The notes beneath the pieces were generated by a model. It did not search any database. It was not told where the DNA came from and saw only the letters and a program-made list of their open reading frames with translations. From a virus, in the UHGV virus genome UHGV-1351068: a stretch of 64,000 nt of DNA. The stretch is one strand, 5' to 3'. Position numbers and translations under genes: made by a program. Numbering within the stretch: the stretch's first letter is position 1; every line of letters starts with the position of its first letter. Positions 4,061 through 49,642 of this stretch are shown here, in pieces.

Positions 4061-5078
4061 TTCAACAAGAGCAAGTTCAACGCGTAGCACGATTTATCGT
4101 GCTATCATTACATCTAAGTTTAGAACTGAAAAGATGTACACATTTTATAAATCGATTGGTCCGGGAACGGACCAAAACACACTGTATGTTTCATTTGGCA
4201 AAAGCACTCCGTGGTCAGATAACGAATCTGAACCCGGATTTGCACCTCCATATCCCGCTGATAATGGAGATGGGGTAGTTGATGTTTGGACAAATATGAT
4301 GGGCGCGGTCAAAATTGAATCATCAATGCTTGACTGTGTTGTTCCAAGAAGAGACTGGGGAGATACAAGATATCCTAACCCACGCACATTTCTAATTGGC
4401 GATATCGTTGTTGCTAACTCTGCGCCATATAACAGAACTGATGCTGGATTTGGATGGATGGTATATAGATGTATTGATGTTCCAAAGGATGGAATGTGTT
4501 CAATTGGCAATCTTACAAGCAAAGAAGAATGTATTAAGCTTGGGGGTAAATGGACACCATCCACTATTTCTGGTTCAGCTCCTCGAGGTCGTGGTGATGC
4601 AAATGGTACCGTCGATTTGGGCGATGGATATCTTTGGGAATATCTATATGAAATTCCAGCCGACGTATCAATTAACAGATGTACAAATGAATATATCGTA
4701 GTTCCTTGGCCAGAAGAGATTGAAGAATCTCCAGCCCGTTGGGGATTTCAAAACAACTTAACTTGGCAACAAAACGACTTTAATTTGATTTATCGCATGA
4801 AATGCAATACTATCAGGTTTAAAGCGTATCTTGATGCGGTTTATTTTCCGGAGTTCAGTCTTCCGGGAAATACTGGATTTAGACAGCTGTCAATTATAAC
4901 TAATCCGCTTGAAGTTAAGCCAATGCCAAATTCACCTAATGTTAAGGCTGAAAAAGGCTGGTATAGTGCTTCTGGTCTTGAAAGACAGTCAGGTGAAATG
5001 ATTTACATGGAAAATCGGCAACCTATTATTCGTTCAATGGACCAAACGGAAGAATTAAACTTAATTTTCGAGTTTTAA
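4053..5078 (+). CDS. 8: baseplate wedge protein gp8
   Basis: N-terminus IYRAIITSKFRTEKMYTFY.. and body closely match recalled T4 gp8 (IYRAIVTSKFRTEKM..); probable start ATG 4053 (track start 4050). Confidence 0.85.
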   Translation: MSNSTRASSTRSTIYRAIITSKFRTEKMYTFYKSIGPGTDQNTLYVSFGKSTPWSDNESEPGFAPPYPADNGDGVVDVWTNMMGAVKIESSMLDCVVPRRDWGDTRYPNPRTFLIGDIVVANSAPYNRTDAGFGWMVYRCIDVPKDGMCSIGNLTSKEECIKLGGKWTPSTISGSAPRGRGDANGTVDLGDGYLWEYLYEIPADVSINRCTNEYIVVPWPEEIEESPARWGFQNNLTWQQNDFNLIYRMKCNTIRFKAYLDAVYFPEFSLPGNTGFRQLSIITNPLEVKPMPNSPNVKAEKGWYSASGLERQSGEMIYMENRQPIIRSMDQTEELNLIFEF

Positions 5079-23097: not shown

Positions 23098-24657
23098 ATG
23101 AAAAAGAATAAACTTATCGAAAAATGGCAGCCGCTGCTTGAGAACGAAGCTCTGCCGGAAATTGTTGGCGCTAGCAAAAAAGCTCTGATCGCTAAGATTT
23201 TTGAAAACCAGGAAGCTGATATTAATCAGGCTCCGGAATATCGCGATGAAAAAATCGCTGAAGCATTTGGTTCTTTCCTGTCTGAAGCAGAAATTGGCGG
23301 TGACCACGGTTATGATGCACAGAACATCGCAGCTGGTCAAACCTCTGGTGCTGTAACCCAGATTGGCCCGGCAGTTATGGGTATGGTTCGTCGTGCTATC
23401 CCTAACCTGATTGCTTTCGATATCTGTGGTGTACAGCCGATGTCTAACCCAACCGGTCAGGTATTCGCTCTCCGCGCTGTTTACGGCAAAGACCCTCTGG
23501 CTGCTGGTGCTAAAGAAGCTTTCCATCCGATGTACGCTCCGGATGCAATGTTCTCTGGTCAGGGTGCAACCGAGAAGTTTGAAGCAGTTAAAGCTGGTGC
23601 TTCTCTGGATGTTGGTGATATCGTAGTTCATGATTTCGCACAGACTGGTCGTGCTCACCTGCAGGTTGTAACAGCCTTTACAGTTGATGCTGCTGCTACT
23701 GATGCTGCTAAACTGGATGCTGAAGTCACTAAGCGTCTGGAAGCTGGCGAAGTAGTTGAAATCGCCGAAGGTATGGCTACTTCCGTTGCTGAACTGCAAG
23801 AAGCATTTAACGGTTCTAAAGATAACCCGTGGAATGAAATGGGCTTCCGTATCGATAAACAAACTATCGAAGCGAAATCTCGTCAGCTGAAAGCACAGTA
23901 TTCCATCGAGCTGGCTCAGGACCTCCGTGCTGTTCACGGTATGGACGCTGATGCTGAACTGAGTTCAATCCTGGCTACCGAAATTATGCTGGAAATCAAC
24001 CGTGAAGTTGTTGATTGGATTAACTACTCCGCTCAGGTTGGTAAATCTGGTATGACCCAGACTGTTGGTTCTAAAGCCGGTGTATTCGACTTCCAAGACC
24101 CGATTGATATCCGCGGTGCTCGTTGGGCAGGTGAAAGCTTTAAAGCTCTGCTGTTCCAGATTGACAAAGAATCCGCTGAAATCGCTCGTCAGACCGGTCG
24201 CGGTGAAGGTAACTTCATTATCGCTTCCCGTAACGTAGTTAACGTACTGGCAGCTGTTGATACCAACGTATCTCCGGCAGCTCAGGGTCTGGGTCGTGGT
24301 TATAATACCGACACCACTAAAGCAGTATTTGCTGGTGTTCTGGGTGGTCGCTACCGTGTATACATCGACCAGTATGCTCGTCAGGATTACTTCACTATCG
24401 GTTATAAAGGTGCTAACGAAATGGATGCTGGTATCTACTATGCTCCGTATGTTGCACTGACCCCGCTGCGTGGTTCCGATCCGAAGAACTTCCAACCGGT
24501 CATGGGGTTCAAAACCCGTTACGGTATCGGTATTAACCCGTTCGCCGATTCTGCTGCTCAACAGCCGAAAGGTCGTATTACCTCTGGTATGCCTTCTATC
24601 GTCAACTCTGTTGGTAAGAATGCTTACTTCCGTCGTGTATGGGTTAAAGGTATCTAA
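23098..24657 (+). CDS. 23: major capsid protein gp23
   Basis: 519 aa; about 85% identical by eye to recalled T4 gp23 (e.g. AAGQTSGAVTQIGPAVMGMVRRAIPNLIAFDICGVQPM). Confidence 0.95.
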   Translation: MKKNKLIEKWQPLLENEALPEIVGASKKALIAKIFENQEADINQAPEYRDEKIAEAFGSFLSEAEIGGDHGYDAQNIAAGQTSGAVTQIGPAVMGMVRRAIPNLIAFDICGVQPMSNPTGQVFALRAVYGKDPLAAGAKEAFHPMYAPDAMFSGQGATEKFEAVKAGASLDVGDIVVHDFAQTGRAHLQVVTAFTVDAAATDAAKLDAEVTKRLEAGEVVEIAEGMATSVAELQEAFNGSKDNPWNEMGFRIDKQTIEAKSRQLKAQYSIELAQDLRAVHGMDADAELSSILATEIMLEINREVVDWINYSAQVGKSGMTQTVGSKAGVFDFQDPIDIRGARWAGESFKALLFQIDKESAEIARQTGRGEGNFIIASRNVVNVLAAVDTNVSPAAQGLGRGYNTDTTKAVFAGVLGGRYRVYIDQYARQDYFTIGYKGANEMDAGIYYAPYVALTPLRGSDPKNFQPVMGFKTRYGIGINPFADSAAQQPKGRITSGMPSIVNSVGKNAYFRRVWVKGI

Positions 24658-47280: not shown

Positions 47281-47350
47281 TTCTCCGTAGTTTGTTTATC
47301 TGTTTGGGTGGTACAGGTCTATAGTAACCCAGACCACCCAAGAAGTAAAC
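47281..47350 (-). repeat. early-promoter/5'-UTR repeat unit (GTTGTTTAC-N18-TACTATAGACCTGTACCACCCAAAC..GGAG-ATG)
   Basis: 28-mer gtttgggtggtacaggtctatagtaacc identical to copy at 48303-48330; sigma70-like -35 GTTTAC (47345-47350) and -10 TACTAT. Confidence 0.5.
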
Positions 47351-47368
47351 AACTTTTATTCAAAAACT

Positions 47369-47918: not shown

Positions 47919-48287
47919 TTACTGTTTAGTCCAATTATCCATGTTTAATTTACCAACCTTTTTCATTTGTTCAATTAAAGCATCGGCACGATTACGACCA
48001 TTTTCATACCAGGTTACATCTTCTGAGTAACCGTCTTCTTCATCTGTGTAGGTTTCAGAACGAATACGACCAACAACTGGAGTGTTCAGAACATATACAG
48101 AACCTGTGAACCAGTTTGTTAAAGTGATATGCCAGCAGAAATCATCTGATGGACCGTCCGGTGTCATGCATGGAACGATATCACCTTGAACTTTAGACAA
48201 AATCCACATTTTCTCATGGACAGTTTGAGCTTTGTAACCGTCATGGTCTTTAGTCTTGATAGTTGCGTTCAGGTTGATGGTATTCAT
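47919..48287 (-). CDS. hypothetical protein (122 aa)
   Basis: SD GGAG; early-promoter repeat unit upstream. Confidence 0.5.
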   Translation of the reverse strand: MNTINLNATIKTKDHDGYKAQTVHEKMWILSKVQGDIVPCMTPDGPSDDFCWHITLTNWFTGSVYVLNTPVVGRIRSETYTDEEDGYSEDVTWYENGRNRADALIEQMKKVGKLNMDNWTKQ

Positions 48288-48353
48288 TTTATTCTCCGTT
48301 GTCCGTTTGGGTGGTACAGGTCTATAGTAACCTTGTTGAACTTAGAAGTAAAC
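48288..48353 (-). repeat. early-promoter/5'-UTR repeat unit, second copy
   Basis: Same architecture and identical 28-mer; directly downstream of terminator 48373-48403. Confidence 0.5.
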
Positions 48354-48372
48354 AACTTTTTTCATTCTGCGG

Positions 48373-48403
48373 AAAATAAAAAAGGGACTCCCGAAGGAGT
48401 CCC
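48373..48403 (-). terminator. terminator after small basic ORF (minus strand)
   Basis: Minus strand GGGACUCC-UUCG-GGAGUCCC + UUUUUAUUUU. Confidence 0.6.
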
Positions 48404-48408
48404 TGAAC

Positions 48409-48615
48409 TTATGCTTTCGGCTTACCAAAACGAGAAGCATCATCGCGAAGAACCGCACGAGCCCGACGCATGATTTTCTCAACCGTCTGATTGATACGCT
48501 TGTTCGACCCACGCTTGTAGCCAGCGCGTTTAGAGGTACCAACAACTTCTTTTACTGCAGTTTTTGCTTTAGCTTGTTTAGCCATTTTATCATCTTCCAT
48601 TTTGGAGAAATACAT
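48409..48615 (-). CDS. small highly basic (Lys/Arg-rich) protein
   Basis: 68-aa ORF MAKQAKAKTAVKEVVGTSKRAGYKRGSNKR..; strong rho-independent terminator immediately downstream; about 340-nt GC-rich leader upstream. Confidence 0.45.
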   Translation of the reverse strand: MYFSKMEDDKMAKQAKAKTAVKEVVGTSKRAGYKRGSNKRINQTVEKIMRRARAVLRDDASRFGKPKA

Positions 48616-48954
48616 GGGAGCACGTTCTTCCGAGGTTCAACTTCTTTCGACAGTTCTTTCGGTTGTAGCTCCCGCAAGCCCTCAAGGGGGTACGTTTAAA
48701 CTCTTATCTGTTGCACACCGTTAGCTTAAAGGTTCCGGGTCCGATTTATCGGGGATAAGATATACACCGATGGATGTATAGGCCTTGAGGCGTACTCCCG
48801 ATTGGCCATCGCCTCGGGGTAGCATGCACTTGCCGTTTATTTTCTAGCTGCACTTTGGTAGCAAATCACCGTTGGTTTCGGGTGTTTTACGTGGGGATAA
48901 CCAACAACGTCCACATCATACGTTACCCATGCGTACACATGGTGGGCGTACAAA

Positions 48955-49218
48955 TTACTTCAGCGTTACCACAAAGTGGCGAACAGCTTTGCGAGCAGCA
49001 GAACCAAGATGCTTAGCATACTTCAGTTCGTCCATCGCTTCTAAAGTATCACGAAATTCAGCTTGTGCTGGGTTCAGGTGTTTAAACCCTTTCAGAACTT
49101 CCAGTGTTTCTGCATAGATATCGATTGAAGCACCGTAGTTTTCGTGACCGGAATTCCATGCATTACGTTGGAGTTCCAGAGCTTTAGTAAGTTGTTTGTT
49201 CATTGAATCGTTCCTCAA
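48955..49218 (-). CDS. rIII: rIII lysis-inhibition accessory protein (by position and size)
   Basis: 87 aa (T4 rIII 82) immediately downstream of gene 31 on same strand as in T4. Confidence 0.5.
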   Translation of the reverse strand: MRNDSMNKQLTKALELQRNAWNSGHENYGASIDIYAETLEVLKGFKHLNPAQAEFRDTLEAMDELKYAKHLGSAARKAVRHFVVTLK

Positions 49219-49318
49219 ATGAGGTTAAAATTTGGTGGACGGTAACCGAGGTTTAGCTCGGGCATCCACCGCGTAGAATTGCTCGGGTAACTAATTGTCC
49301 GACGCCCAATTCATATTA

Positions 49319-49642
49319 TTATTTATATACGCATGCAAGGGACTTATAATGACAAGTCACAAACTTCTGCCGAATTTCTTTGGGTTTCTTCACACCTGCT
49401 GCTACTAACGGATGAGGTACGTTTCTGATATTACCAACAGGCAGTGGAGTCAAATCACCGACTTCAACAAATCCTTTCGGTACATCATCACCGATAGAAT
49501 AGATTTCACACATATCCGGCAGTTGTCCTTGTTCTTCTTTTCCAAGAATAATACCGGAAGGAGAAACAATTTCATCACCTTGCTGTGCAGGTTCAGATAC
49601 GAGAATTACATACTCGCCTAGAGCTTTAATTGGAAGTTCCAT
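49319..49642 (-). CDS. 31: co-chaperonin gp31 (GroES analogue)
   Basis: [22 protein letters not shown].. and C-terminus [10 protein letters not shown] closely match recalled T4 gp31. Confidence 0.85.

What the first reader, a model, noticed from the sequence alone, without database searches (positions are those of the whole stretch)
48616..48954. 340-bp GC-rich ORF-free island between rIII and a small basic ORF
This stretch is about 50% G+C by my count of a 120-nt sample, against an AT-rich background elsewhere. No frame on either strand is open longer than about 40 codons. It is full of short inverted repeats: GAGGCG..17nt..CGCCTC, CCGATttATCGG, and GGGGATAA twice. It lies on the transcribed (minus) strand between the rIII stop and a 68-aa Lys/Arg-rich ORF, which is followed by a strong terminator. 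Candidate explanations are a structured ncRNA, a long autoregulatory leader bound by the basic protein, or a horizontally acquired remnant. I could not fit a tRNA cloverleaf or recognise any known RNA family by eye.
Basis: seen in the sequence. Interest (0 to 1): 0.65.

Follow-up and report, generated by a model that had tools for sequence, protein, structure and literature searches.

The report
Structured RNA spacer with antitoxin mimic
The GC-rich gap between two genes of this T4-like Klebsiella phage is neither junk nor a dead gene: it is a transcribed chain of conserved RNA folds, one of which copies the RNA antitoxin of the bacterial ToxIN suicide-defence system, and another is a 135-nt RNA of a kind not yet described.

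Summary
Window 48616-48954 is 49.9% G+C against 39.6% overall, has no real ORF, and its inverted repeats are genuine. It is the rIII-to-gp30.9 spacer (48586-48954, minus strand) of a Klebsiella T4-like phage (Jiaodavirus). It probably lies in a late transcription unit, inferred from a promoter motif and a terminator. The spacer is a mosaic of RNA modules, shuffled among Tevenvirinae.

- **B (48870-48921):** an H-type pseudoknot found in all 42 distinct spacers examined.
- **E (48839-48871):** a single unit homologous to the toxI antitoxin repeat of type III ToxIN loci carried on enterobacterial plasmids, including Klebsiella. It keeps the ToxI pseudoknot pairs and five of six ToxN-contact bases. 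Related phages, including T4, keep the fold through compensatory changes.
- **A (48701-48835):** a 135-nt RNA with seven helices including a 6-bp kissing loop. 17 of 41 pairs show compensatory changes, and 32 G·U cells against 0 A·C fix the strand. It has no Rfam match and was found only in T4-like phages.
- **C and a Shine-Dalgarno-masking hairpin:** these precede gp30.9.

Best reading: a structured RNA leader carrying an anti-ToxIN decoy plus an undescribed RNA. ToxN inhibition and A's function are inferred, not shown.

The parts
49320..49327 (-). T4-type late promoter motif TATAAATA upstream of rIII. It is the probable start of the rIII-spacer-gp30.9 late transcript.
   Evidence: 18 matches in the window against 5.6 expected. 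That this motif is the T4 late -10 element is established T4 knowledge. Its use here is inferred.
48955..49218 (-). rIII (lysis inhibition accessory protein), the upstream cistron.
   Evidence: phrog_1457, E=3e-40; annotation of near-identical phages.
48927..48942 (-). Hairpin F (CCAUGU-GUAC-GCAUGG). Erwinia phage Cronus has a longer version.
   Evidence: Only two lineages were compared, so support is weak.
48870..48921 (-). Module B: an H-type pseudoknot. Stem 1 is AUGUGG/CCACGU, stem 2 is GUUGGUU/AACCAAC, and the last loop is A-rich. It is present in every rIII-30.9 spacer examined, including T4.
   Evidence: 42 of 42 distinct spacers; cognate versus non-cognate helix length: stem 2 6.1 vs 4.7, stem 1 5.9 vs 4.9; single copy in the window.
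48839..48871 (-). Module E: a single ToxI-like (pseudo-ToxI) unit, CGGUGAUUUGCUACCAAAGUGCAGCUAGAAAAU, homologous to the antitoxin repeat of type III ToxIN systems.
   Evidence: (matches toxI arrays upstream of toxN on 69 plasmids). ToxI structural facts come from PMC8860590 and PMC3475682.
48697..48839 (-). Module A: a 135-nt core (48701-48835) closed by helix P0 (UAAA 48836-48839 / UUUA 48697-48700). The helices are P1, P2, P3, P4, P5 (GNRA-like loop) and P6, plus a 6-bp kissing loop between the P2 and P3 loops. It belongs to no known family.
   Evidence: (99.1% of cells paired; 17 of 41 pairs with compensatory changes; 0 of 500 shuffles reach the observed value).
48679..48689 (-). Hairpin C1 (CCC-UUGA-GGG) followed by conserved CUUGCG. 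It is present in nearly all spacers, with variable loops.
   Evidence: sequences read directly; not formally tested.
48616..48673 (-). Long hairpin C2, closed by GGGAGC/GCUCCC. The closing stem covaries between lineages: T4 GCAGG/CCUGC, Cronus GGCGA/UCGCC, Serratia 4S GGAGCU/AGCUCC.
   Evidence: read by eye.
48593..48608 (-). Weak hairpin pairing UCUCC with the gp30.9 Shine-Dalgarno sequence GGAAGA (SD-masking).
   Evidence: Conserved in non-T4-type spacers. Its function is inferred.
48409..48585 (-). gp30.9, a 58-aa Lys/Arg-rich protein of unknown function (phrog_1427). The true start is the ATG at 48585.
48383..48404 (-). Intrinsic terminator ending the rIII-spacer-gp30.9 unit.

Best explanation
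The island is the transcribed spacer between rIII and gp30.9 of a T4-like Klebsiella phage. It is made into RNA on the minus strand, probably as part of the transcript that starts at the late promoter upstream of rIII and ends at the terminator after gp30.9. It is a chain of self-contained RNA folds that T4-like phages shuffle among themselves. A core of pseudoknot B, hairpins C and an SD-masking hairpin always accompanies gp30.9 and probably sets the stability or translation of that mRNA (inferred). Inserted into this core are accessory modules. Module E is a single copy of the ToxI antitoxin RNA of the ToxIN abortive-infection system, which sits on small plasmids of Klebsiella, E. coli, Salmonella and relatives. 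Proposed mechanism (inferred): phage shutoff of host transcription lets the unstable host ToxI decay. The phage transcript then supplies a ToxI look-alike. ToxN binds its pseudoknot and 3' overhang, cuts at the GAAAAU site and stays bound to the product, so its active site is blocked and phage mRNAs are spared. With one unit and no 5' cleavage site, a 1:1 complex is expected rather than the closed 3:3 ring. Module A is a 135-nt RNA with a closed multi-helix fold and invariant junction strands. It is specific to T4-like phages, patchily distributed and horizontally exchanged. Its function is unknown. My best guess is a second trans-acting accessory RNA (a decoy or inhibitor of a host factor), and next best is an RNA-processing element.
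For: **Shown.**
- Identity and context: 99.9% identical to Klebsiella Jiaodavirus phages, with gene order 31-rIII-spacer-30.9-30.8 as in T4.
- Transcription signals: TATAAATA upstream of rIII, one terminator after 30.9, and no sigma-70-like site on the minus strand inside the spacer.
- Module E origin: it hits toxI tandem arrays of 3-10 units per record, immediately upstream of ToxN/AbiQ genes, on 69 plasmids, in the sense orientation.
- Reciprocal search: ToxI finds exactly this site in 160+ Klebsiella T4-like phages and only this site in the window.
- Module E fold: against the published ToxI structure, E keeps G2-C15, G3-C14, U4-A13, all of stem 2, U12/U22/G21, G5, A19/A20, and contact bases A6, U7, U8, C27, U28.
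- Selection on the fold: across 10 phage variants plus 3 plasmid repeats, stem 2 is 100% paired with 2 of 3 pairs covarying. These are U9-A25 to C-G in Mosigvirus, Karamvirus and L041, and G10-C24 to A-U in T4. G2-C15 becomes A-U in Karamvirus.
- Precedent: phiTE pseudo-ToxI suppresses ToxIN once expanded, and its extra 3' A and shortened U-run were harmless.
- Host and phage background: ToxIN plasmids occur in K. pneumoniae. TifA, the known protein anti-ToxIN factor of T-even phages, was not detected at scale in Klebsiella phages.
- Module A: 99.1% of cells paired, 17 of 41 pairs compensatory, a kissing loop 100% paired with 3 of 6 pairs covarying, and 32 G·U against 0 A·C. P0 covaries, and L041 adds covariation in P1 and P6.
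- Module A distribution: its position relative to B differs between genera, yet it is about 94% identical between Klebsiella and E. coli phages.
- Module B: present in 42 of 42 spacers.
Against: - No experiment shows that E binds or inhibits ToxN.
- E is a single unit. In phiTE, 1.5 repeats were inactive and expansion to 4.5-5.5 was needed.
- Position 1 is C rather than the ToxN-contact base A.
- Loop 2 is 1-2 nt shorter than any plasmid repeat seen.
- The 3' site is GAAAAU, not GAAAU.
- There is no AAAU site on the 5' side, where pseudoknot B abuts, so the closed heterohexamer cannot form in the canonical way.
- T4 carries a degenerate unit and is still restricted by ToxIN in the laboratory (PMC9391042), so at least that version is insufficient.
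- No expanded arrays were seen in any T4-like phage.
- For A, nothing links it to defence except its neighbourhood and patchiness.
- A and E occur independently of each other.
- The transcription unit is inferred from motifs, not from RNA data.
Confidence: 0.6

Rival explanations
1. A purely cis-acting leader. The whole spacer only controls stability and translation of gp30.9 mRNA, for example through autoregulation by the basic gp30.9 protein binding pseudoknot B. The ToxI-like unit is a recombination relic with no anti-defence role, and A is a stabilising fold.
For: B, C and the SD-masking hairpin are universal partners of gp30.9. gp30.9 is small and very basic. phiTE wild-type pseudo-ToxI was inactive. 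T4, with its degenerate unit, is ToxIN-sensitive.
Against: E keeps the ToxI fold through independent compensatory changes in at least three phage lineages, and it keeps the ToxN-contact bases, which a relic would lose. A and E are optional and change position relative to B, which is not expected of parts of one operator. In the window B lies about 280 nt from the start codon. A's invariant unpaired strands and kissing loop go beyond what a stabiliser needs.
Confidence: 0.22
2. Module A is a small self-cleaving or RNA-processing ribozyme, or a mobile RNA cassette. It cuts the polycistronic transcript, separating rIII from gp30.9 and, in Klebsiella phages, trimming the 3' side of the ToxI-like unit.
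For: A is a self-contained closed fold with paired ends (P0). It has invariant junction nucleotides, acts independently of position, and looks like a cassette inserted at different sites. In Jiaodavirus, Karamvirus and L041 it lies immediately 3' of E.
Against: No match to any ribozyme family in Rfam, even at E<=10. A occurs without E in many phages, and module D separates E from A in Mosigvirus. No target-site duplication or associated endonuclease was seen. The idea was not tested.
Confidence: 0.1
3. Decayed or very small protein-coding gene, as some GenBank records annotate 'hypothetical proteins' here.
For: Several deposited genomes call short ORFs over the spacer.
Against: No frame is open for more than 55 codons. 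The small ORFs have no credible PHROG match. Homologues of module A differ by +1, -3 and +9 nt indels. Substitutions are compensatory in helices rather than third-codon-position.
Confidence: 0.02
4. A DNA-level element such as a replication origin, recombination hotspot or protein-binding repeats, rather than RNA.
For: Inverted repeats and raised G+C, with mosaic exchange between phages.
Against: Pairing is strand-asymmetric: 32 G·U cells and 0 A·C on the gene-sense strand, with 811 of 818 cells canonical there against 779 on the other strand. Pseudoknot and kissing-loop covariation has no DNA-duplex rationale. The ToxI-like unit is in the sense orientation.
Confidence: 0.03

Closest known systems
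ToxI, the RNA antitoxin of type III toxin-antitoxin/abortive-infection system ToxIN (Pectobacterium pECA1039; E. coli and Klebsiella ColE1-type plasmids)
   Same: Module E is homologous in sequence: GGUGAUUUGCUACC and GUGCAGCUAGAAA are identical to the K. pneumoniae plasmid repeats. It keeps the H-type pseudoknot (stem 1 core, all of stem 2, the U·U·G triple, the A-minor adenines), the 3' overhang, and 5 of 6 bases that contact ToxN. It is transcribed in the sense orientation.
   Different: It is a single unit rather than a tandem array of 3-6. It has no own promoter or terminator and no adjacent toxN. It sits inside a phage mRNA between other folds. Position 1 is C, loop 2 is shortened (AAA instead of UU(U/C)AA), there is an extra A at the 3' cleavage motif, and there is no 5' cleavage motif.
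pseudo-ToxI of Pectobacterium phage phiTE (Blower et al. 2012, PMC3475682)
   Same: A phage-encoded, intergenic, sense-transcribed ToxI look-alike. Both have an extra 3' A and a shortened U-run. The compensatory U9C/A25G pair of phiTE also occurs in the Mosigvirus, Karamvirus and L041 versions of module E.
   Different: phiTE is an rV5-like phage and carries 1.5 repeats that must expand to work. Its units have C27G/U28A, which cripple ToxN binding. The window's unit keeps C27 and U28 but is a lone copy fixed across 160+ T4-like Klebsiella phages. A degenerate relative sits in T4 itself. No literature report of this locus was found.
TifA (T4 gp61.4), the protein inhibitor of ToxN in T-even phages
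   Same: Same proposed target (ToxN) and the same phage group, so it would be a functional analogue.
   Different: TifA is a protein at a different locus, and gp30.9 is unrelated to it. TifA homologues were found in 675 phage records, and Klebsiella was not among the listed host names.
H-type pseudoknot operators and antitoxins (T4 gene 32 mRNA pseudoknot, from my own knowledge; TenpI antitoxins as described in PMC12283969)
   Same: Module B is an H-type pseudoknot with two covarying stems and an A-rich final loop, in an mRNA leader.
   Different: No sequence similarity to any plasmid or E. coli RNA. There are no tandem repeats, and no binding partner is known.
Kissing-loop RNAs (purine and lysine riboswitches, VS ribozyme, phi29 pRNA; from my own knowledge)
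   Same: Module A shares only general architecture: a multi-helix junction locked by a loop-loop interaction, and a GNRA-type tetraloop.
   Different: No Rfam model matches. A has no fixed relation to an expression platform. Its helix order and conserved nucleotides differ. Membership in any of these families is not claimed.

Membership tests
ToxI antitoxin RNA (type III TA, ToxIN) | A unit of about 35-36 nt with sequence similarity to toxI repeats. | tested here: met
   29 of 31 aligned positions (93.5%, one gap) are identical to plasmid toxI. There were 69 plasmid records, each with 3-10 tandem hits next to toxN. The reciprocal hit was unique in the window.
ToxI antitoxin RNA (type III TA, ToxIN) | An H-type pseudoknot. 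Stem 1 is 1-4/13-16, and stem 2 is 9-11/23-25 plus U12·U22·G21. A19/A20 make A-minor contacts and G5 makes the turn. | tested here: met
   Window unit: stem 1 has 3 of 4 pairs (C1·A16 is lost). Stem 2, U12, U22, G21, G5 and two adenines before G21 are all present. Across 13 sequences stem 2 is 100% paired with 2 of 3 pairs covarying, and stem 1 is 78.8% paired. Structure from PMC8860590.
ToxI antitoxin RNA (type III TA, ToxIN) | Base-specific ToxN contacts A1, A6, U7, U8, C27, U28. | tested here: met
   Five of six are present; position 1 is C. C27 and U28, whose mutation abolishes antitoxicity, are intact.
ToxI antitoxin RNA (type III TA, ToxIN) | ToxN cleavage motifs (GAA^AU / AA^AU) on both flanks, so that a 36-nt unit with 5' and 3' overhangs is released. 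| tested here: not met
   The 3' side has GAAAAU, one extra A as in phiTE. The 5' side has no AAAU, because pseudoknot B abuts directly.
ToxI antitoxin RNA (type III TA, ToxIN) | A tandem array of repeats with its own promoter and terminator, immediately upstream of toxN. | tested here: not met
   There is one unit only in the window and in all T4-like records, and no toxN. This is expected for a mimic, so the unit is filed as a homologue or mimic and not as a TA locus.
ToxI antitoxin RNA (type III TA, ToxIN) | Neutralises ToxN and assembles into a ToxI-ToxN complex. | not testable with these tools
   Needs a toxicity-rescue assay, a binding assay or phage genetics.
Phage pseudo-ToxI counter-defence (phiTE type) | A phage-encoded ToxI-like RNA expressed during infection that suppresses ToxIN abortive infection. 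| tested here: inconclusive
   The phage-encoded and sense-strand parts are met, and location inside a probable late transcription unit is inferred. Expression and suppression were not tested. T4's degenerate version does not protect T4 in the laboratory.
Any Rfam family (riboswitches, ribozymes, sRNAs, leaders), tRNA, tmRNA | A covariance-model match at gathering score, or at least a plausible sub-threshold match; a cloverleaf fold. | tested here: not met
   cmscan found no hit at gathering score in 64 kb. In 48200-49400 only three chance-level hits appeared at E 0.3-6.6. ARAGORN found none.
Riboswitch (for module A) | An aptamer in fixed register with an expression platform of the downstream gene. 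| tested here: not met
   A lies before B in Merlin, Cronus, EnC15 and SP18 but after B in the window, AS6 and Serratia 4S, with different sequences following it.
Protein-coding gene or pseudogene | An open frame, a codon-like substitution pattern and homologous proteins. | tested here: not met

The most novel reading that the evidence does not exclude
The rIII-30.9 spacer of T4-like phages is an 'RNA anti-defence island', a hotspot where phages collect and swap small structured RNAs that act in trans against host immunity. Module E would be a natural single-unit antitoxin mimic that disarms ToxN without forming the canonical ring. Module A would be a new class of structured RNA: either a decoy or inhibitor of another RNA-dependent host defence, or a new ribozyme. 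Modules D and X of E. coli phages would be further such cassettes.
Probability: 0.3. Interest if true: 0.85.

Novelty: new variant of a known kind. Interest (0 to 1): 0.72.

Why it matters
RNA mimicry of an antitoxin has one studied example (phiTE), and there it worked only after laboratory expansion. Here a ToxI-like unit is fixed, with its fold under selection, in 160+ Klebsiella T4-like phages, a group much used for therapy. Relatives sit at the same locus in E. coli Mosigvirus phages and, in degenerate form, in T4 itself. If active, it is a natural RNA counter-defence and a determinant of host range on strains carrying ToxIN plasmids. It also makes a question about ToxN directly testable: can one pseudoknot embedded in an mRNA block the enzyme without the closed 3:3 assembly? 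Module A has strong comparative support (seven helices, a kissing loop, invariant junctions) and no known family. That makes it a clean candidate for structural and functional study in a genetically tractable phage group. Practically, the 'hypothetical protein' calls over this spacer in many GenBank records look spurious.

Tried and rejected
- **Rfam and ARAGORN.** cmscan at gathering score on 64 kb and at E<=10 on 1.2 kb, plus ARAGORN, found nothing relevant.
- **Thermodynamic folding.** Folding of the whole stretch on either strand is not exceptional (z -1.35 and -0.75), so MFE alone would have missed the structures.
- **Modules A and B as mimics of bacterial RNAs.** blastn with word 11 against 72,556 plasmids and 5,426 E. 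coli genomes gave no match, or only chance 20-25-nt hits.
- **Module A in bacteria or archaea.** An exact-pattern scan of 185,579 species genomes gave 0 hits.
- **Module A in new contexts.** The metagenome scan gave 52 pattern hits, of which only 13 are real, and all are close relatives on T4-like contigs.
- **Module A as a mimic of 16S rRNA helix 27.** A 16 of 18 identity that I noticed is not significant; 17 of 300 shuffles score as high.
- **Module B as a TenpI mimic.** The Klebsiella plasmid named in PMC12283969 (L060) showed no recognisable tenpI repeats or PADLOC hit, so the idea stays untested.
- **Module A as an AvcI-like antitoxin mimic.** No sequence or structure data were available.
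- **gp30.9 as a TifA relative.** No similarity. Pfam gave nothing for gp30.9.
- **GAGGCG/CGCCTC as a helix.** It conflicts with the better-supported P2 plus kissing loop.
- **Similarity of A's 5' end to the 3' half of ToxI.** CAAGUGCAUGCUAC resembles UAAGUGCAGCUAG, but the local score is at chance level, so I only note it.
- **Literature.** Searches found no report of a ToxI-like unit or structured RNA at the rIII-30.9 spacer. A 2003 Biologija paper on rIII/30.9 expression and Guegler & Laub 2021 are not held.
Full report
**Where we are.** The window is from a T4-like Klebsiella phage of the genus Jiaodavirus. Bases 48300-49300 are 99.9% identical to vB_Kte_K65PH164 and about 99% identical to KpV477, PKO111 and KPV15. 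On the minus strand the genes run cd, 31.2, 31.1, 31, rIII, [spacer], 30.9, terminator, 30.8, as in T4. The 'small basic ORF' is gp30.9. Comparison with T4 and others puts its start at the ATG at 48585 (MAKQAKAK..., 58 aa), so the spacer is 48586-48954. A T4-type late promoter motif (TATAAATA) lies at 49320-49327 upstream of rIII. The only terminator-like site is at 48383-48404, after 30.9, and no sigma-70-like site lies on the minus strand inside the spacer. I infer that the spacer is transcribed as part of an rIII-30.9 RNA. There are no RNA data.

**Check of the observation.** G+C of 48616-48954 is 0.499 against 0.396 for the window, which puts it in the top 0.7% of 339-nt windows. No frame is open for more than 55 codons. 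The small ORFs have no credible PHROG match. No tRNA, tmRNA or Rfam family matches, even at E<=10. Single-sequence folding is unremarkable. The case for structure is therefore comparative.

**The spacer is a mosaic.** I extracted the rIII-30.9 spacer from 55 loci, which gave 42 distinct sequences. The loci cover Jiaodavirus, Karamvirus, Moonvirus, Roskildevirus, Gaprivervirus, Mosigvirus, Tequatrovirus (including T4), Gelderlandvirus, Muldoonvirus and uncultured contigs. The spacers are 120-416 nt long and are built from a limited set of modules in different orders. In the window the order is hairpin F, pseudoknot B, unit E, module A, hairpins C1 and C2, and a hairpin that pairs with the gp30.9 Shine-Dalgarno sequence. 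In SP18 and some Mosigvirus phages the order is E, D, A, B, C. T4 has E(degenerate), D, B, C. Merlin has A, B, C.

**Module B (48870-48921).** A profile of B finds it in 42 of 42 distinct spacers and once in the window. It reads as an H-type pseudoknot.
- Stem 1 variants include AUGUGG/CCACGU in the window, GAUGAC/GUCGUU in T4 and GAUGGCG/UGCCGUU in L023.
- Stem 2 variants include UUGUUGGUU/AACCAACGG in the window, UUCAAGGUU/AACCUUGGG in the Proteus phage, UUAGUAGUU/AACUACUAA in L045 and UUGUGAG/CUCACAA in Merlin.
- Cognate strands form longer helices than non-cognate ones: stem 2 6.1 vs 4.7 and stem 1 5.9 vs 4.9. This supports the fold, though less stringently than for module A.
- B, the C hairpins and gp30.9 always travel together, so a cis role in gp30.9 expression or mRNA stability is the natural inference. 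Binding by gp30.9 is possible but untested.

**Module E (48839-48871).** This is the one part that connects to known biology.
- *Match to toxI.* The minus-strand sequence CGGUGAUUUGCUACCAAAGUGCAGCUAGAAAAU matches tandem repeats on 69 small plasmids of E. coli, Salmonella, Klebsiella, Yersinia, Pectobacterium and Serratia, with 3-10 hits per plasmid.
- *A Klebsiella example.* On K. pneumoniae plasmid CP044396 these are 5.5 repeats of AGGTGATTTGCTACCTT(C/T)AAGTGCAGCTAGAAATTT. A terminator and a ToxN/AbiQ-family toxin gene follow, which makes a canonical type III toxIN locus.
- *Reciprocal search.* The same search from ToxI finds this site, in the sense orientation, in 160+ Klebsiella T4-like phages and only this site in the window.
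- *Published structure.* In E. coli ToxI the core pseudoknot is positions 1-25 and the 3' overhang is 26-32. Stem 1 has four pairs buttressed by A19/A20. Stem 2 includes the U12·U22·G21 triple. G5 makes the turn. ToxN reads A1, A6, U7, U8, C27 and U28 and cuts GAA^AU (PMC8860590).
- *What the window's unit keeps.* It keeps G2-C15, G3-C14, U4-A13, all of loop 1, all of stem 2, G21, two adenines before G21, C27, U28 and the whole GCUAGAA overhang.
- *Where it differs.* Position 1 is C, the loop is shorter (AAA for UU(U/C)AA), there is one extra A before the U of the cleavage motif, and no cleavage motif lies on the 5' side.
- *Precedent for two of these differences.* An extra 3' A and a shortened U-run also occur in phiTE pseudo-ToxI, where they were harmless. 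C27G/U28A were the crippling changes there (PMC3475682).

**Selection on the ToxI fold in phages.**
- Mosigvirus phages p000y and ChristianSchoenbein carry, directly after the rIII stop codon, AGGUGAUUCGCUACCUUAAGUGCGGCUAGAAAAU. It differs from plasmid ToxI by the compensatory pair U9C/A25G.
- Karamvirus units have U9C/A25G and also G2A/C15U.
- L041 has U9C/A25G.
- T4 itself has GGAGAUUCACUGCCUUAGUGUGAGCUAAAU, with C9-G25 and A10-U24. It has lost one stem-1 pair and one adenine.
- On an alignment of 3 plasmid repeats and 10 phage units, stem 2 is 100% paired with 2 of 3 pairs covarying. The covariation score exceeds all 500 shuffles and all slid controls.
- This is what selection for the ToxI fold would produce, not decay of a relic.

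**Ecological context for E.** Perfect ToxI units also sit in unrelated phages. There are two units right after tRNA-Ile in the tRNA cluster of the T5-like Klebsiella phage PWKp9S, and one unit between terminase and portal in Kuravirus XT32. ToxI mimicry therefore looks widespread: 261 of 50,697 phage records have a match. TifA, the protein anti-ToxN factor of T-even phages (PMC10853763), has tblastn matches in 675 records, and Klebsiella was not among the listed host names. Jiaodavirus may rely on the RNA instead, with the caveat that a small, fast-evolving protein can be missed.

**Proposed mechanism for E (inferred).** ToxIN is triggered when phage shutoff of host transcription lets unstable ToxI decay. 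A phage transcript carrying E would replace it. ToxN binds the ToxI 3' end first, as a 1:1 intermediate. It would then cut in GAAA^AU and stay on the product with its active site occupied. Because B abuts the 5' side, the closed 3:3 ring is unlikely. The counter-arguments are listed under evidence against. The most important are the single copy, the fact that phiTE needed expansion, and the ToxIN-sensitivity of T4.

**Module A (core 48701-48835).**
- *Distribution.* A 135-nt core is about 94% identical between Klebsiella and E. coli/Shigella phages, while its flanks do not align. It is absent from T4, VP8 and Proteus-type phages.
- *Pair counts.* Twenty distinct sequences gave an RNAalifold structure with 16 of 39 pairs compensatory. 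With a kissing loop I found by eye, 99.1% of 818 cells are paired and 17 of 41 pairs have changes on both sides. No shuffle reached the observed values for pairing, compensatory changes or covariation score, and the slid controls reach only 30-44% pairing.
- *Kissing loop.* It joins the P2 and P3 loops and is 100% paired with 3 of 6 pairs covarying. The pairs are CGAUGG/CCAUCG in the window, UGAUGG/CCAUCA in SP18, CUAUGG/CCAUAG in Serratia 4S and CAAUGA/UCAUUG in Cronus and L024.
- *Strand.* 32 G·U cells against 0 A·C put the RNA on the gene-sense strand.
- *Further covariation.* A divergent copy in L041 (101.8 bits) adds compensatory changes in P1 (GGC/GCC to GGU/ACC) and in P6. A closing helix P0 outside the core covaries too: cognate 5.9 vs non-cognate 2.6 pairs, with only UAAA/UUUA in the window.
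- *Invariant strands.* The unpaired strands CGGCAAG.GCAUG, ACCCGGA.CC and GCUAACGGUG.GCAACAGAU do not vary.
- *Copy number and range.* There is one copy in the window, none in 185,579 bacterial and archaeal species genomes, and only close relatives in viral and metagenome collections.
- *What it is not.* Its position relative to B differs between genera, which argues against a riboswitch with a fixed expression platform and for a self-contained cassette.
- *Function.* I could not determine it. Patchy distribution, horizontal exchange and its neighbourhood next to E make a trans-acting accessory or anti-defence RNA my first guess, and an RNA-processing element my second.

**Verdict.** The island is a composite structured RNA. 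One module is a new, naturally fixed variant of the known phage pseudo-ToxI strategy at a locus shared with T4. Another is a well-supported structured RNA that fits no described family. Shown: the homology of E to toxI, the conservation of its fold, the structures of A and B, and the mosaic distribution. Inferred: the transcription unit, ToxN inhibition, the roles of A and B, and the absence of prior description. That last point rests on the limited library I could search.

Noticed in passing
L006 (T4 NC_000866) 4749-4780 minus strand, which is spacer positions 6-37 just after the rIII stop: T4 itself carries a degenerate ToxI-like unit, GGAGAUUCACUGCCUUAGUGUGAGCUAAAU. Stem 2 is kept by two compensatory changes (C9-G25, A10-U24). 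It is followed by a long irregular hairpin ('module D'). I found no mention of this in the T4/ToxIN papers I could read.
   Followed up: partly
L115 401-473 (Klebsiella phage PWKp9S, T5-like) and L116 401-440 (Escherichia phage XT32, Kuravirus): Perfect ToxI units occur in unrelated phage families. PWKp9S has two tandem units immediately after tRNA-Ile inside its tRNA cluster. XT32 has one unit, with a GAAAUUC 5' site, between the terminase and portal genes. In all, 261 of 50,697 phage records match ToxI.
   Followed up: partly
L058 810-870, L059 and L047/L043 spacers: Some Mosigvirus and Tequatrovirus phages have a different ~50-nt insert ('module X', ...ACUAUCACGCGUCAGAAAAAGGUUAUCUGUCUAAGUCGUGG...) in the slot where SP18 and L015 carry module A. 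L036/L030 has an extra ~50-nt insert after A. The spacer behaves as a cassette hotspot.
   Followed up: no
window 48305-48332 and 47302-47329 (also 48344-48360 and 47341-47357): Exact 28-nt and 17-nt repeats lie in the two intergenic regions upstream of gp30.8 and of the next gene downstream. They probably reflect a shared promoter or leader. They explain the 'second place' and the two-piece matches that blastn reported in several phage records.
   Followed up: partly
window about 23200-24600: This is the only other part of the window whose 339-nt G+C reaches that of the island, at or above 0.50. I did not examine it.
   Followed up: no
window 48586-48954, as annotated in GenBank records such as PQ569696, PQ537370, PP738764: Several deposited genomes annotate two to six 'hypothetical proteins' under the matched stretch, some of them in this spacer. 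Given the covariation and frame-breaking indels, the calls that fall within the spacer are probably spurious.
   Followed up: partly
window 48822-48835 (5' end of module A): The invariant CAAGUGCAUGCUAC at the start of module A resembles the 3' half of ToxI (UAAGUGCAGCUAG, including C27 and U28). The local alignment score is at chance level, so this may be coincidence or a trace of common origin.
   Followed up: partly
That ATG lies just 3' of hairpin C2, and the SD-masking hairpin falls inside the extension. Homologues, including T4, start at MAKQAK, which gives 58 aa.
   Followed up: yes
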